From a phage, in the sequence record PZ445450.1: 64,000 nucleotides of DNA. One strand, written 5' to 3'. A program made the translations under genes and the position numbers. Shown in pieces: positions 45,694 to 60,173 of this stretch (position 1 is its first letter; the number at the start of each line of letters is the position of its first letter). A model generated the notes under the pieces. It saw only the letters and a list, made by a program, of their open reading frames with translations, searched no databases and was not told the DNA's origin.

Positions 45694-46005
45694 TATTTTT
45701 AAGTTATCAGGTTGCTAGAGATCAGGAGGATTTCTAAAATGGATTTCCTCCTTTTGATATTTCACCGGACCAGATATTTTAAAATTCTTAGAAAATCAGA
45801 AAATGGATCGAAAACTAAAATGGATTTTTCAGAGTAGGCGCGACAAGCTGAATCGCTCATCCTATCGTTTGCACCATATTCTAGACCACCATTACAGATT
45901 TCCCGCACATGCTCACATCCTTCTACTAGAACTTCCTCCACTTACCCTTGACTTTTTATGGTAATAGTCTAACCACTATCTTGAGGTTGCGGTACAGCTT
46001 TCCGG

Positions 46006-46170
46006 GTACTCGATCTGTTTTTCGTTTCAAAGATTGAATTTTCTGAAAATTTTTCTCGATAAATTTCTCAGTACTCGATCTGTTTTTCGTTTTCTGAATC
46101 GGATTTTCTGGAAATCGTTCCGGAGCTCGACCTGAAATTTTTGGGGACGAAATCGATTTTTCGTTTTCAG
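46006..46170. repeat. Imperfect direct repeats with about 65-bp period
   Basis: GTACTCGATCTGTTTTTCGTTT at 46006 and 46071, related CGATTTTTCGTTTTC at 46154; AAATGGATTTTT motif recurs in the region. Confidence 0.6.
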
Positions 46171-46242
46171 AAATGGATTTTTAAAATTTCTATATGGGAA
46201 TATTTTATAGGATACTGTTTTATAGGAAATTGTTACGGAGGG

Positions 46243-46260
46243 TAATTAGCATGCTAATTA
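46243..46260. repeat. Perfect 18-bp palindrome
   Basis: TAATTAGCATGCTAATTA; operator-like. Confidence 0.6.
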
Positions 46261-46330
46261 AATTTATTAAATGCGAGGAGTTCTCATTTAGAATTTTGAA
46301 TGATAATCATTCTCGTTTGCAGAATAACGG

Positions 46331-46370
46331 GCAGGCCCGGTGATTGTCTCCCGGCCCCTGTTGCCCCGGC
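46331..46370 (+). repeat. GC-rich element, copy 1
   Basis: Core CCGGTGATTGTCTCCC within GGGCAGGCCCGG..CCGGCCCCTG. Confidence 0.55.
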
Positions 46371-46464
46371 TTGTTATTATAGTATCACACAGGACAAAGA
46401 AAGCAAGGACTTTTTGCATAAATTTTTAAATGATAATGATAACCGTTCTCATTTTATGCAGCGC

Positions 46465-46505
46465 CCATCCCCGGTGGTTGTCTCCCCCGTCACCGGTGCC
46501 TGCCG
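46465..46505 (+). repeat. GC-rich element, copy 2
   Basis: Core CCGGTGGTTGTCTCCC followed by CACCGGTGCCTGCC; reverse complement matches copy at 55694. Confidence 0.55.
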
Positions 46506-46675
46506 TCCTTTCGATAGGTATATTGTGCCACCTGGCGGGGCCGCTGTCAACACTTTTCAAAAAATTTTTCTAACCTGATGCGCTAACCGTTGCAACCTGG
46601 CGGGGCCAGCCTGGCAGGGGGGTGAAAGCTTGCAAACCTGGTAGTAGGGTAAACAATTGAAGAGGAGGTACAAAA

Positions 46676-56458: not shown

Positions 56459-56722
56459 ATGAAACGTCTTGACCAGCTCAAACTAGTTCAGTACATGGCT
56501 TACAGAATTCTTGAAGTCCAAAAAGGTAGCAAAAAAGAAGTTTGCGAGAAAGCGTACAAGATCTTTACTCGCAAAAAAGACGATTGGATGTTACGCCAGA
56601 CCAAAAAAGCCGATATCTTGGGGTACCTGGAAGAAGAGATCCGGCTTGAAGAACAAGAAGAGATCCGCCGTAGTGAGGCAGATTATCAGGCAGCTTGGGA
56701 AAACTGGATGAGCAACAAATAA
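56459..56722 (+). CDS. Small early protein
   Basis: 87-aa charged ORF with AAAGAGGAAAA RBS. Confidence 0.45.
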   Translation: MKRLDQLKLVQYMAYRILEVQKGSKKEVCEKAYKIFTRKKDDWMLRQTKKADILGYLEEEIRLEEQEEIRRSEADYQAAWENWMSNK

Positions 56723-56866: not shown

Positions 56867-57286
56867 ATGAACATTAAATCTGATAATCCGGCATATAGCT
56901 TTGATAACGCTTTTTGTCACGGTCCGGCGGCGAAAGGATTCGAAATCGATGGTAAACTAATTATTGTCAATGTTGACGGGGAAGAGGTTGCAGTATATCC
57001 GGTGGCAGACGTTAAAAGCCGTCTACAATGCCGCATAGATGTTACCGCCTATCAGCTTGATCCGGTCCGGGTAGTTGCCCTGGTCCTGGAAGAAGAAATT
57101 AAAGCAATGCACCACAGCAACAAGTTTATTGGTGACGCTCAAGATAATATGCAGGTATGCCGCTATAAAGTTAATGAAGTGCTTAAAGAGTACGGCTATA
57201 AGGATTTAATGATCAAGCGCGATGAAAAATTCCGCTACCGTAACAACCTGGCAAATCGGATTTTTGAAATATACGAATCATTATAA
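56867..57286 (+). CDS. Early protein, unknown function
   Basis: 139-aa ORF with TAAGAGGTAAAA RBS; last gene of rightward early cluster. Confidence 0.5.
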   Translation: MNIKSDNPAYSFDNAFCHGPAAKGFEIDGKLIIVNVDGEEVAVYPVADVKSRLQCRIDVTAYQLDPVRVVALVLEEEIKAMHHSNKFIGDAQDNMQVCRYKVNEVLKEYGYKDLMIKRDEKFRYRNNLANRIFEIYESL

Positions 57287-57304: not shown

Positions 57305-57334
57305 AAGGGGCTTAAAGGCCCCTTTCTTTTTGTC
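57305..57334 (+). terminator. Rho-independent terminator closing the early cluster
   Basis: Stem AAGGGGC/GCCCCTT then TCTTTTTGTC. Confidence 0.75.
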
Positions 57335-58046
57335 TGCTCTTCTCCTACCATAAACGGCCCTACCTGGCAAGTGGAATAATTGACTAGCCATCAATCCCAC
57401 ATACTGTACAAATATACATGGAAAATAACTATTGCATAATCTTTCATTGTGCGGTAGCAGGGCCATTTTTACCCGTTTTCTCTCCCAAAAGTGCACGTAA
57501 TGCCGCTATTGCACAAATTTTAACCTGATGCACATATCCAATATCTTGTCAACAACTAAAAATCTTTATAAGTCATACACTTATACAGCATCGAAAGCGT
57601 GTTCTACGTGAAAAATCGAGTATAACTATAGCCGCCAGATCTCAGAATTCACGTACGCACGCCATTCTATAGCCTGCAAAGTATTTATTCCAACCACAGA
57701 ATAACGGAATAGTCAATACCTGCATAAAATAATTATTCGTGTAAACTGCATAACATAAATCAGCTCAGGTGTCAACATTTTTCGTAAACAGTCCGAAATT
57801 ATCACGATGAGTTATCATAAACAGAGAAATCTTTAGTCGTCTAATGTTTACTGTACATTACTATACTGACTGGAATCATTAGATGACTAAGAAAAAGATA
57901 AGAAATAATTAATAATGTAATTGTTTTATCTGTAACAATAAGGCAACCATGCAAACGAATGTCATGGCGCGACGGAGTCGCGACATAATATAAAAGCAGT
58001 AACCATCACCCCCGTGATAGTTTGTCTGCAATCTATTATTCAGATC

Positions 58047-58118
58047 ATAGTTGCCTTGTATTTAGTTAATCATGACATAACAAGCAAGGCAACTATAGCT
58101 CTGATAATAGTTGCCCTG
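58047..58118. repeat. 12-bp inverted repeat pair plus a direct copy
   Basis: ATAGTTGCCTTG (58047) / CAAGGCAACTAT (58085) with 26-bp spacer; direct variant ATAGTTGCCCTG at 58107. Confidence 0.6.
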
Positions 58119-58247
58119 CTTTTATATTATGTCATAGATTGTTAGCTTGTTAACTGTCAGCCTGTTGGCTGTTAGCTTGTCAATTATTAAATTGCTAATC
58201 TTTATCATGCAAACGAATGTCATGGCTTATCATCTCTGTGTAAACAG

Positions 58248-58302
58248 TTTGGGCGTAAACTATTCAGGCGTAAACAGTCTATGCGTAAACAGTGAGATAT
58301 GG
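58248..58302 (+). repeat. Four tandem 15-bp repeats (iteron-like)
   Basis: Units start 58248, 58263, 58278, 58293, each G(T/C)GTAAAC(A/T)..; dispersed GTAAACAG copies also near 57783, 58587, 59347. Confidence 0.65.
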
Positions 58303-59837
58303 AATAGTAACAGCCGTTATTGTGTCATATTGTGTGACATTGTGTCCGGTGTCTGGTGTCCAGTGTGTCAGACAAGTTTTTCTCCTCTTTGTCAAGTGCT
58401 GCATGAAAAATTTACAAACTGGTATGGTAGCATTTTTGCGGCCCTGTTTACATTCAGTTGTGTATGTATAACCCTTGTTGTGTGGGCGTTTAGACGTCTA
58501 GACGGTTGGAAGTCTGCAGGTCAATATCTAATCTATCGGCTGCTAACTATATCCCACACAAATAGTAAGAAATATAATTGTTATGTGCGTAAACAGTAAC
58601 TCATGTTATCAATCCCTGTATGTATCGCCAGTGGTGCGCATAATGGGTATTATGTTAAATTGCCCGTAATGATAATGGTTCTCACAATGATAGGTATTCT
58701 CATTCATCCACACAAAATAGGTTGCAAATGTTGTGCCACTGTGTGAACGGCCTGGCCTATTAATTTCCCTCACTGCCTCGATATTTGAGAATTGTTATAA
58801 GAATGAGAAGTATTCCCATTTCGTCCGCCTGGCAGCACTCCTGTAGTCCTACAAGGACTCTAGCTGAAAGCTAGACCCTTCGGGCCTCCCTGCAGGTCAG
58901 GTCAAAATCGTGGTAGAATTGGGCTTATTCAGATATTTCTGGCCGACTCTTCAGGTCTGTGTGGGAAAAGCCAACCTCTCCGGCGGGGCAGGGGGAGGTC
59001 AATTAAAAAATTTACGTGGTGTATGAAGCGCTCTTCAGGTAAGGCAGGTATTATGGGATGAAACCCTCTTCAGGCAATGATATTTGTGGGTGTGATATTT
59101 GCTGGAAAGCCAGATATGACGGGACTCCCGGCGGGGATGGGGCAGTACAGACAGGGAAAATATGGGGATGTAGTTGGGTAAATTGATCAGACAGGTAGAG
59201 TATGGAATATGTTACAAGTATGTTAAATATGGAGGGTGAATATCTGTAGGATTTGTGTGTAAAATCAAAGACTTAAGCGGTGTTGTGGTATTTTCTATAA
59301 ATAATTCAAGTTTAATAGGTAATATTTGTCTCTATCCACTCTGTGTGGTAAACAGATTCAGATGATATTGGTTTGCAAGTGTATACATAATATACAAATT
59401 AAAGATACAAGAAACCCCCCTCCCCCTTCGGCTACCATTCACCTTTTCCTCTGACTGGTACTTAAACACTTATTCAGACTCTTCAGGTTATCACCCATAT
59501 ATCATATGGCAGTGACTGGTGTCCTCCGGCCCCTCTTTCGTCACCCGTCCGCTTCGCCATGCTAATGCCATAGCCAAATGTTCGGTTGTTCACCCTGTTC
59601 ACTCAGGTGTATCTCCATACCCCTTCAAACCGAAGAGAACAGAAAACCCGAATTACTCGGTAAAAGAAAAGAGAAGAACTTAATTTTATCATGATAGGCA
59701 AGAATGTCAAGGCATGACTGCTCACTAAACAAGCAAACAGTCATGTGTGGAAGGTAAGTGATTGTGGTGGTAGGAAATTTAGTTGAAAGATGTGTTATAG
59801 GTGCTCCCAGCACTTTAGCCGGGTAGCTAATTGTGTG

Positions 59838-60053
59838 TCAGTCCAGTGGTTCATCACCTACTTCACTGAAATCAATGTTCATGGTCTCCTCCCAACCATC
59901 AATCTCAGCACCAGAGTAGAGATCTTTAGGACTTACTCCCAAAGCCTCAGCAACAGAGTCTATATTTAACACCTCTGGCAGGTATGATTCATCGAATTCA
60001 AGGTAAATCAGGCCACGAGTGTTGTCAGCTCCACCAAATATTTCTATCTTCAT
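59838..60053 (-). CDS. Small acidic protein
   Basis: Start set at ATG 60053 with GAGGAGA RBS; 71 aa. Confidence 0.45.
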   Translation of the reverse strand: MKIEIFGGADNTRGLIYLEFDESYLPEVLNIDSVAEALGVSPKDLYSGAEIDGWEETMNIDFSEVGDEPLD

Positions 60054-60173
60054 GAAATCTCCTCTGGAAATGAGAATGTGAACAGGGTTTATATGTTCCA
60101 ATGCACTGGAATTATGCACGTTTGCCTCTTCAGGCCATGCTTTAGCATGAGGAACCTGTGTGGGCTCGGTGCT

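What the first reader, a model, noticed from the sequence alone, without database searches (positions are those of the whole stretch)
57335..59837. 2.5-kb gene-free, repeat-dense locus between two convergent early-gene blocks
Both flanking blocks transcribe toward this region, and it holds at least four repeat families (GTAAACAG, CTCTTCAGGT, ATAGTTGCCYTG, a 21-bp exact duplicate CATGCAAACGAATGTCATGGC at 57948 and 58206) and strand-skewed composition. This is the signature of a cis-acting site such as a replication origin, packaging site, genome terminus or ncRNA locus rather than degenerate coding DNA.
Basis: seen in the sequence. Interest (0 to 1): 0.75.

Follow-up and report, generated by a model that had tools for sequence, protein, structure and literature searches.

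The report
Phage genome ends and terminal repeat
This gene-free stretch of an rV5-like E. coli phage holds the physical ends of the packaged DNA, a 459-bp direct terminal repeat flanked by repeat arrays. That was already published for close relatives, so the locus is real and functional but mostly ordinary.

Summary
Window 57335-59837 shows no coding signal. The repeat families sit where stated, are far above chance, and recur in more than 100 independent Vequintavirus (rV5-like) genomes.

The locus is the terminal, or concatemer-junction, region of the phage chromosome. Window 58371-58829 matches base for base the 459-bp non-permuted terminal redundancy that PhageTerm found in phage LL12. [quoted passage not shown] It also matches the repeat annotated at both ends of phage Gotham. 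At least 11 GenBank records start or end exactly at 58371 or 58829.

Four hypervariable tandem arrays abut the left cut site, and a hairpin-module indel follows the right one. The cut-site sequences themselves do not vary.

Three sub-features appear not to have been described:
- A 406-bp block (59395-59800) that is more conserved than codon positions 1 and 2 of the neighbouring gene. It carries a near-consensus sigma-70 promoter aimed at the repeat.
- A palindromic cassette that is missing in phage FV3.
- Fur-box-like palindromes inside the repeat, shared with two other genera.

The core finding is already known and interest is modest. Origin and ncRNA roles remain untested.

The parts
57305..57334 (+). 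Intrinsic terminator (8-bp stem, T-run) closing the + strand gene block
   Evidence: annotated as a terminator in Murica at the homologous place
57335..57824 (.). Left spacer with no coding signal, evolving at about the neutral rate
   Evidence: 31% variable columns against 32% at third codon positions of the control gene; codon-phase p>0.5
57948..57968 (+). 21-bp direct repeat, copy 1 (CATGCAAACGAATGTCATGGC)
   Evidence: D7; FV3 lacks everything between the two copies
57982..58133 (.). Palindromic cassette. It has 18-bp perfect outer arms (57982-57999 / 58116-58133) and inner ATAGTTGCCYTG arms at 58047, 58085(-) and 58107. It contains terminator-like hairpins on both strands.
   Evidence: I1, I7, I14; folding z about -8 on both strands; 8.5% variable columns; absent from FV3; inner hairpin annotated as a terminator in Murica
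58135..58180 (+). Tandem array TAGCTTGT (period 8, about 6 copies), replaced by GC-rich hairpin modules in most relatives
58206..58226 (+). 21-bp direct repeat, copy 2
   Evidence: D7
58240..58293 (+). 15-bp tandem array GTAAACAGnnnnnGC (3.6 copies here; 1-8 GTRAAC units in relatives)
   Evidence: D1, 82, 85
58318..58366 (+). 10-bp and 7-bp tandem arrays TATTGTGTCA / GTGTCCG that run up to the left cut site; copy number varies between phages
58371..58829 (.). 459-bp direct terminal repeat, that is, both physical ends of the virion DNA. The left cut is RTGTCA|GACAAGTTTT and the right cut is CGTCCGCC|WGGCAGC.
   Evidence: Aligns end to end with the Gotham repeat_region 1-459 and 136567-137025. 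It hits LL12 at 104966-105424, exactly the PhageTerm repeat of PMC6658697. Records of ECP2303, ECP2309, EdH4, EcoIv14a_Aya, YN3, Pr121LW and four bov phages begin or end at these two coordinates. The cut-site flanks are invariant in 17 sequences apart from the R/W positions.
58668..58704 (.). Two adjacent Fur-box-like palindromes (AATGATAAnnnTTCTCAyy) inside the repeat; a third lies at 58802-58820
   Evidence: 12 strand-matches in the window against 1.3 expected. Half-sites are invariant and the spacer is variable in 14 phages. The same box clusters in the terminal regions of BME3 and KPP-1.
58842..58888 (+). Insertion/deletion module of GC-rich hairpins (GAAA and UUCG loops) just right of the right cut; absent or different in most relatives
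58889..59394 (+). G-rich (+ strand), weakly constrained spacer with CTCTTCAGG at 58947, 59031 and 59066, CCGGCGGGG at 58980 and 59128, an indel hot spot at 58995, and an AT-rich tail at about 59260-59400
   Evidence: 29% variable columns
59395..59800 (-). Highly conserved 406-bp block containing the promoter below, a C6TC5 run at 59415-59426 (G5AG6 in a - strand RNA) and a CTCTTCAGG copy at 59479
   Evidence: 5.4% variable columns against 9% at codon positions 1-2 of the neighbouring gene; 96-99.5% identity in 117 records; top 5% of 400-nt windows against phage WM; no codon signal and no PHROG hit
59683..59710 (-). Near-consensus sigma-70 promoter (TTGACA-16-TG-TAAAAT, 11 of 12) reading leftwards towards the terminal repeat about 850 bp away
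   Evidence: both hexamers unchanged in 18 distinct sequences

Best explanation
The locus is the terminal (concatemer-junction) region of a Vequintavirus chromosome. Virion DNA is linear and non-permuted. Its two ends are the cuts at window 58370|58371 and 58829|58830, so the 459 bp between them is present at both ends of every packaged molecule as a short direct terminal repeat. In an assembly it collapses to one copy.

Inferred mechanism, by analogy with T7-type phages. Replication joins genomes head to tail through the repeat. Terminase recognises the junction, cuts at the two invariant sites, and the repeat is duplicated so that each genome leaves with a full copy at both ends. The roughly 1 kb of gene-free DNA on each side carries the accessory signals:
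- terminators that keep the two convergent gene blocks from transcribing through the junction;
- short tandem arrays abutting the left cut, proposed here as terminase or accessory-protein binding sites;
- palindromic, Fur-box-like operator sites inside the repeat;
- a highly conserved promoter block that sends transcription towards the junction.

Shown: the location and length of the repeat, the invariant cut sites, the absence of genes, and the pattern of constraint. Inferred: every functional role given to the flanking elements.
For: Location of the repeat.
- The Gotham record carries the same 459 bp at both ends, and it aligns to window 58371-58829.
[quoted passage not shown] My 459-bp query hits LL12 at exactly those bases.
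- At least 11 records from several laboratories begin or end at 58371 or 58829.

Conservation.
- Repeat length is 457-460 bp, and the cut-site flanks are invariant apart from the R/W positions, in 17 sequences.
- The same architecture (convergent small-gene blocks, a 1.5-2.5 kb gene-free gap, a short repeat inside it) occurs in KPP-1 (514-bp repeat from doubled coverage plus PhageTerm, T7-type) and BME3 (342 bp).
- The two ends of the KPP-1 repeat resemble those of the window..TCTCC(T)TTGTCAAG.. at one end and ..GTCCGYC at the other.

Flanking elements.
- No coding signal is present.
- The four tandem arrays all lie within 236 bp of the left cut and are the most variable part of the locus, with 69% variable and 78% gapped columns.

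T7 precedent. Repeats are used in replication and packaging, and RNA polymerase pauses at the concatemer junction to start maturation.
Against: - No reads exist for this particular phage, so its termini are inferred by homology (93-98% identity).
- Some reports call vequintaviruses circularly permuted or headful: the rV5 paper, the bov phages in PhageTerm and BpE1AUH.
- The terminase gene lies outside the window and was not examined.
- Nothing shows that the arrays, the cassette or the conserved block act in packaging. The cassette is missing in FV3, so it is dispensable. The conserved block has no counterpart in KPP-1, whose corresponding flank is only about 335 bp.
Confidence: 0.85

Rival explanations
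1. Replication origin (may coexist with the terminus). In this reading the conserved block 59395-59800 is a transcription-primed, R-loop-type origin. The sigma-70 promoter makes a G-rich - strand RNA that ends in G5AG6 next to an AT-rich stretch. The phage's T7-like polymerase and primase-helicase would take over from that RNA. Alternatively, the GTAAACAG arrays could be iterons.
For: - A near-consensus, invariant promoter is present.
- The block is more constrained than the neighbouring gene's codon positions 1-2.
- The - strand is G-rich here, with GC skew -0.14 on the + strand.
- A C6TC5 run at 59415-59426 is followed by the AT-rich 59260-59400.
- The window encodes a family-A DNA polymerase and a primase/helicase.
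- Local GC skew flips sign on either side of the repeat.
- GTAAACAG is enriched: 8 copies against 2.0 expected.
Against: - There is no experimental mapping.
- The rV5 authors found that skew changes simply follow transcription direction.
- DnaA boxes are not enriched: 26 against 20 expected, with one in the region.
- The arrays have a 15-bp period and 1-8 copies in viable relatives, which is unlike a fixed iteron set.
- No initiator-like gene is adjacent.
- The block is absent from KPP-1.
Confidence: 0.2
2. Non-coding RNA locus. One or more stable structured RNAs are made from the region, for example a - strand RNA of about 280 nt starting near 59676. Their function would explain the high conservation.
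For: - A strong conserved promoter has no ORF behind it.
- Folding z-scores are -2 to -3 on the - strand across 59480-59880.
- The only double substitution in the block (59504/59505) keeps the CCATAT..ATATGG palindrome.
- GNRA and UUCG-type hairpins occur at 58860-58885.
Against: - Rfam gave no hit at gathering threshold, and only microRNA-like noise on the DNA palindrome at E<=10.
- The 286-nt candidate folds with z=-1.15 on the - strand and -0.12 on the + strand.
- Sequence variation is too low for covariation.
- The tetraloop hairpins lie in an indel module that most relatives lack.
- A weak terminator-like hairpin sits only about 16 nt after the predicted start.
Confidence: 0.15
3. Headful packaging with circular permutation. 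There would be no fixed ends, and the region would be at most a pac site or a spacer between transcription units.
For: The rV5 paper groups these phages with circularly permuted genomes. PhageTerm returned 'circular permutated' for four bov phages and 'headful' for BpE1AUH.
Against: - LL12 PhageTerm gave a non-permuted 459-bp redundancy.
- The deposited version-2 bov records themselves start exactly at the repeat boundary.
- At least 11 records share the same two end coordinates.
- KPP-1 shows two-fold coverage over its repeat.
- PhageTerm gives such default calls when no read-start peak is found, for example with transposase libraries (own knowledge).
Confidence: 0.06
4. Unannotated or decaying protein-coding DNA.
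For: Some records call small ORFs here (APECc02, 12A, JEP1, HMD-6). The longest ORF is 150 aa (58147-58599).
Against: - No three-base periodicity of substitutions appears anywhere in the region, while the neighbouring gene gives p=5e-5.
- The 150-aa ORF spans the hypervariable arrays and the repeat boundary.
- There were no PHROG hits.
- The ORFs called differ from record to record.
Confidence: 0.03

Closest known systems
Vequintavirus terminal redundancy (LL12, EdH4/HdK5, Gotham)
   Same: It is the same sequence element. It is 93-98% identical and 457-460 bp long, with the same boundaries and the same position in a non-coding gap between convergent transcripts.
   Different: Nothing differs at the level of the repeat itself. 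The published notes give only its length and position. They do not describe the flanking arrays, the cassette, the conserved promoter block or the Fur-box-like sites.
Phage T7/T3 concatemer junction (short direct terminal repeat)
   Same: Both have a short exact repeat at each end of a non-permuted genome, used for concatemer formation and packaging, and transcription running into the junction is linked to maturation. From my own knowledge, T7 also has arrays of short repeats on both sides of its 160-bp repeat, promoters (phiOL, phiOR) a few hundred bp from the ends, and a hairpin intermediate at an inverted repeat during end duplication.
   Different: This is a myovirus of about 137 kb with no phage RNA polymerase in evidence, and the promoter is host sigma-70 type. 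The flanking genes are transcribed towards the ends rather than inward from the left end. The gene-free DNA is about 1 kb on each side. No sequence similarity exists. The terminase was not examined.
Short terminal repeats of related genera: KPP-1 (Mydovirus, 514 bp) and BME3 (Justusliebigvirus, 342 bp)
   Same: Both have convergent or end-directed small-gene blocks and a gene-free gap of 1.5-1.8 kb holding the repeat. The KPP-1 repeat has similar terminal sequences. All share clusters of AATGATAAnnnTTCTCATT boxes and have short repeats next to a repeat boundary.
   Different: There is essentially no alignable sequence (nhmmer and blastn give only 37-40-nt weak matches). Repeat lengths differ. 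The conserved 59395-59800 block and the GTAAACAG arrays are absent.
Lambda cos (cosN/cosB with a host IHF site)
   Same: A terminase cut site lies next to an array of protein-binding repeats and a host-factor site, which is the role proposed here for the arrays and the Fur-box-like sites (own knowledge of lambda).
   Different: Lambda makes 12-nt cohesive ends and has no terminal repeat. Binding of any protein here is untested.

Membership tests
Short direct-terminal-repeat (T7-type) genome terminus | Fixed, non-permuted physical ends | tested here: met
   The test is indirect. At least 11 independent GenBank records begin or end at window-equivalent 58371 or 58829. The PhageTerm result for LL12 maps to the same bases. 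No reads of this phage were available.
Short direct-terminal-repeat (T7-type) genome terminus | The same sequence present in direct orientation at both ends | tested here: met
   The left and right ends of Gotham are identical over 459 bp and both align to 58371-58829. ECP2309 and YN3 also carry it twice.
Short direct-terminal-repeat (T7-type) genome terminus | Two-fold read coverage of the repeat in virion DNA | not testable with these tools
   Reported for the relative KPP-1 only.
Short direct-terminal-repeat (T7-type) genome terminus | Large terminase belonging to the short-DTR clade | not tested
   The terminase gene is outside the 64-kb window (gene content).
Headful pac-type, circularly permuted genome | Ends distributed around the genome with no fixed repeat boundaries | tested here: not met
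   Record ends cluster at two exact coordinates and the repeat length is constant at 457-460 bp. Reports to the contrary are noted.
Iteron or DnaA-type replication origin | A fixed set of phased iterons, DnaA boxes, an AT-rich unwinding element and an adjacent initiator gene | tested here: not met
   The arrays have a 15-bp period and 1-8 copies among relatives. DnaA boxes are not enriched. Flanking ORFs have no Pfam match. AT-rich stretches do exist.
Known structured RNA family (Rfam) | A covariance-model match at the gathering score | tested here: not met
   There were no hits in the whole window at gathering threshold. Only microRNA noise on a DNA palindrome appeared at E<=10. There are no tRNAs.
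Protein-coding gene | Three-base periodicity of substitutions, a conserved ORF and family matches | tested here: not met
E. coli Fur box | Match to the 19-bp consensus GATAATGATAATCATTATC (own knowledge of the consensus) | tested here: inconclusive
   The sites in the repeat have 5-6 mismatches. Better sites lie at 46432 (3 mismatches) and 46296 (4), in the BME3 repeat (2) and in the KPP-1 terminal region (3). The derived 19-mer is strongly enriched. Binding by Fur was not tested.

The most novel reading that the evidence does not exclude
The genome ends of rV5-like phages may be wired to a DNA-binding regulator. Palindromic boxes that closely resemble the host Fur (iron-sensor) operator cluster inside or next to the terminal repeat in three genera that share almost no other DNA sequence. 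In this phage they sit beside a 406-bp block, more conserved than codon positions 1-2 of the neighbouring gene, whose sigma-70 promoter fires towards the junction. If host Fur, or a phage protein with the same specificity, binds there, then packaging, end protection or the first transcription after DNA entry would depend on host iron status. The conserved block could be the transcription-primed origin or the packaging trigger.
Probability: 0.25. Interest if true: 0.55.

Novelty: already known. Interest (0 to 1): 0.3.

Why it matters
Knowing where the true ends lie matters in practice. It sets the correct start of the genome record and explains why many vequintavirus assemblies are opened arbitrarily or called 'circular'. 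It also tells anyone engineering these therapeutic-candidate phages which 2.5 kb must be kept intact in cis.

The sub-anatomy gives concrete targets for dissecting packaging and replication in a phage group where neither has been studied. Those targets are the invariant cut sites, the fast-changing arrays, a dispensable palindrome, a highly conserved promoter block and the Fur-box-like sites shared across genera.

Tried and rejected
- Rfam at gathering threshold on the whole window, and at E<=10 on the region, gave nothing usable.
- ARAGORN found no tRNA or tmRNA.
- PHROGs on ten ORFs, and Pfam/NCBIfam on flanking ORFs, gave no hits.
- Distant blastn of the region and of the conserved block against 50,697 phage records found only Vequintavirus.
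- nhmmer and short-word blastn against the KPP-1 and BME3 terminal regions gave only 37-40-nt weak matches inside the repeats.
- An IMG/VR scan with a 28-mer from the conserved block returned only two contigs, so there was no extra diversity for covariation.
- RNA folding of the candidate 286-nt transcript was not distinguishable from shuffles. In sliding windows only the DNA palindrome stands out.
- DnaA boxes are not enriched.
- The GC-rich hairpin insertion modules are not repeated elsewhere in the window.
- No extended homology exists between this region and the second non-coding spot at 46 kb beyond the 18-nt box.
- No paper in the searchable library links Fur boxes with rV5-like phages.
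- One paper search failed on a too-short term.
Full report
IDENTITY OF THE WINDOW. The 2.5-kb region matches 121 phage records at 87-96% identity. Nearly all are Escherichia phages of the genus Vequintavirus, the rV5-like myoviruses of about 137 kb. The equivalent 64 kb of phage WM carries tail-fibre genes, rIIA/B, a primase/helicase, a DNA polymerase and long runs of small unknown ORFs.

The + strand block ends with ORF 56867-57286 and an intrinsic terminator at 57305-57324. The - strand block ends at 59838. Carefully annotated relatives have no gene in between. The rV5 paper already drew this interval as a 'non-coding' box (104013-106618) with no function assigned.

I aligned 14 genomes and counted variable columns by codon phase. 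The neighbouring gene 59838-60119 gives 30:8:9 (p=5e-5). No ORF or 150-nt window inside the region departs from 1:1:1 (all p>0.08). Ten ORFs gave no PHROG match.

- GTAAACAG: 8 copies against 2.0 expected, 7 of them in the region.
- CTCTTCAGG: 6 copies against 0.5 expected.
- ATAGTTGCCYTG: three exact copies forming inverted arms.
- The 21-mer: exact at 57948 and 58206.

Tandem Repeats Finder adds four arrays between 58135 and 58366. The composition skew is real.

WHAT IT IS. Several GenBank records end inside the region. Phage Gotham is annotated with a 459-bp repeat_region at both ends. Both copies align to window 58371-58829, starting GACAAGTTTTTC and ending CGTCCGCC. A search with exactly those 459 bp shows further records that begin or end at one of the two boundaries: ECP2309, YN3, Pr121LW, bov10K2 and bov22_2, in addition to ECP2303, EdH4, EcoIv14a_Aya, bov11CS3 and bov25_3. 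It also hits LL12 at 104966-105424.

[quoted passage not shown] Korf et al. report 458-bp terminal redundancies for EdH4 and HdK5 (PMC6563267).

The central 459 bp of the finding is therefore the direct terminal repeat, and the two boundaries are the physical ends of the packaged DNA. The repeat sits almost in the middle of the gene-free gap, with 1036 bp to its left and 1008 bp to its right. In rV5 itself it maps to 104973-105431, inside the published 'non-coding' box.

Other reports describe vequintaviruses as permuted or headful. However, the bov records that were called permuted start exactly at the repeat boundary. I weigh those reports as failures to detect the ends.

THE SAME DESIGN IN RELATED GENERA. 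KPP-1 (Mydovirus) has a 514-bp repeat shown by doubled coverage and PhageTerm, with packaging described as T7-like. The repeat lies in a gap of about 1.8 kb between convergent small-gene blocks. BME3 (Justusliebigvirus) has a 342-bp repeat followed by 1.1 kb without genes, and its first gene points at the end. Sequence similarity is almost nil. Even so, the KPP-1 repeat starts with ..TCTCTCTCCTTGTCAAG.. and ends with ..CTGTCCGTC, against ..TCTCCTCTTTGTCAAG.. and ..TCGTCCGCC here.

ANATOMY AND CONSTRAINT. The fraction of variable columns in the 14-genome alignment is:
- left spacer 57335-57824: 0.31, the same as third codon positions of the control gene (0.32)
- 57825-57968: 0.15
- palindromic cassette 57969-58133: 0.085
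- tandem arrays 58134-58370: 0.69, with 78% of columns gapped
- terminal repeat: 0.16
- 58830-58888: 0.39, an indel of hairpin modules
- G-rich spacer 58889-59394: 0.29
- block 59395-59800: 0.054, below codon positions 1 and 2 (0.09)

The sequences at the cuts are unchanged in 17 sequences apart from the R/W positions: RTGTCA|GACAAGTTTT and CGTCCGCC|WGGCAGC. Each cut lies in a small palindrome, TGTC-A-GACA and GCC-T-GGC. The distance from the second 21-mer to the left cut ranges from 124 to 211 bp, with 1-8 GTRAAC units.

Phage FV3 lacks everything between the two copies of the 21-mer, that is, the whole palindromic cassette. The cassette is therefore dispensable for a viable phage. The cassette is the only strongly folding element (z about -8 on both strands, a DNA palindrome). 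It contains terminator-like hairpins facing both ways. That fits the bidirectional terminator the rV5 authors expected here but did not find.

THE CONSERVED BLOCK. Window 59395-59800 is 96-99.5% identical in 117 records, nearly invariant in 18 distinct sequences, and in the top 5% of 400-nt windows when the whole 64 kb is compared with phage WM. It holds a - strand promoter, TTGACA-16-TG-TAAAAT (11 of 12), that reads towards the terminal repeat about 850 bp away.

The predicted transcript is G-rich and ends with G5AG6 (the complement of 59415-59426) just before an AT-rich stretch. Folding energy is unremarkable (z=-1.15), Rfam finds nothing, and there is no coding signal. KPP-1 has no room for a counterpart.

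I see two plausible roles, neither tested. One is a promoter that drives transcription into the junction, as phiOR does in T7, where polymerase pausing at the junction starts maturation (the phiOR detail is from my own knowledge). The other is a transcription-primed origin for the T7-like replisome.

FUR-BOX-LIKE SITES. The best-conserved part of the repeat (58600-58710) contains two adjacent palindromes, AATGATAAnnnTTCTCAyy. Their half-sites are invariant while the central three bases vary. With up to three mismatches the 19-mer AATGATAANNNTTCTCATT gives:
- 12 strand-matches in the window against 1.3 expected, at seven sites. Three are in the repeat and three are in a second gene-free spot at 46.27-46.45 kb.
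- 7 matches against 0.16 expected in the BME3 terminal 3.5 kb.
- 9 matches against 0.13 expected in the KPP-1 locus, all in or beside the terminal repeat region.

The pattern was derived from some of these sites, so the counts are somewhat circular. The additional sites and the cross-genus clustering are still not expected by chance. Several sites are close to the classical E. coli Fur box: BME3 has 2 mismatches, KPP-1 has 3 and window 46432 has 3. I found no paper linking Fur boxes to these phages. Whether Fur or a phage protein binds is unknown.

RIVALS. An iteron or DnaA-type origin is not supported. Array copy number varies, the period is 15 bp, DnaA boxes are not enriched, and no initiator gene is adjacent. 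A structured RNA is possible for the conserved block but has only weak support. Coding DNA is rejected. Headful packaging is contradicted by the shared exact ends.

VERDICT. The core fact is already published for close relatives, so novelty is low. The parts that look undescribed are the hypervariable arrays against invariant cut sites, the dispensable palindrome, the highly conserved promoter block and the Fur-box-like sites shared by three genera. These are leads rather than results.

Noticed in passing
window 45965-46675: This is a second stretch without a convincing gene, inside the + strand small-ORF block. It has two units of about 130 bp. Each starts with a Fur-box-like palindrome (46299 AATGATAATCATTCTCGTT; 46435 AATGATAACCGTTCTCATT, a perfect match to the derived 19-mer) followed by a GC-rich segment. 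A - strand sigma-70-like promoter lies at 46550->46522 (10 of 12). Phage WM has an unannotated 1.3-kb gap at the same place.
   Followed up: partly
window 58628-58667 and about 58700-58715; L023 1501-1590 (E. coli UTI89 1652930-1653019): Part of the terminal repeat (GGTGCGCATAATGGGTATTATGTTAAATTGCC...) matches, at 90% over 40 nt, an unannotated intergenic spot in 35 E. coli chromosomes plus one plasmid record. The listed chromosomes include UTI89, NU14 and UM146. The similarity resumes after a gap (CATTCAcATCCACACA). The same stretch is the part weakly conserved in the KPP-1 repeat. Neighbouring E. coli ORFs have no family match.
   Followed up: partly
window 57969-58226 against L010 (FV3): Phage FV3 has a clean deletion of the palindromic cassette between the two copies of the 20/21-bp repeat. 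SYGMH1, of the same species, keeps the cassette.
   Followed up: yes
window about 58077, 58134-58200, 58842-58888 and 58995 (alignment): Small GC-rich hairpin modules (for example ACACCCGAAGGGGTGACC...GGCATAGCCAG and CTCGGGAGCATAGCCCTCGTCTC) are present or absent at four fixed points in different phages, like tiny mobile or recombining cassettes. None is repeated elsewhere in this window.
   Followed up: partly
GenBank records MG065635-MG065690: About 19 unannotated records named 'Campylobacter phage' with host Campylobacter jejuni are 88-97% identical to E. coli vequintaviruses across this region. The host label looks doubtful.
   Followed up: no
window 56459-56722 and homologues; L002 4653-4787: Some annotation labels in relatives look unfounded. 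An 87-aa ORF is called 'DNA translocase FtsK' but has no Pfam hit. A 44-aa ORF inside the gene-free region of APECc02 is called 'structural protein'. Small ORFs in phage WM are labelled '30S ribosomal protein S2' and 'portal vertex protein'.
   Followed up: partly
window 58350-58374: In this phage the left cut site lies inside a 10-bp-stem hairpin (TGTCTGgtgtccagtgtgtCAGACA) followed by the T-run of the repeat's first bases, which resembles a + strand terminator. The left arm is in the variable array, so only the core TGTCAGACA is conserved.
   Followed up: partly
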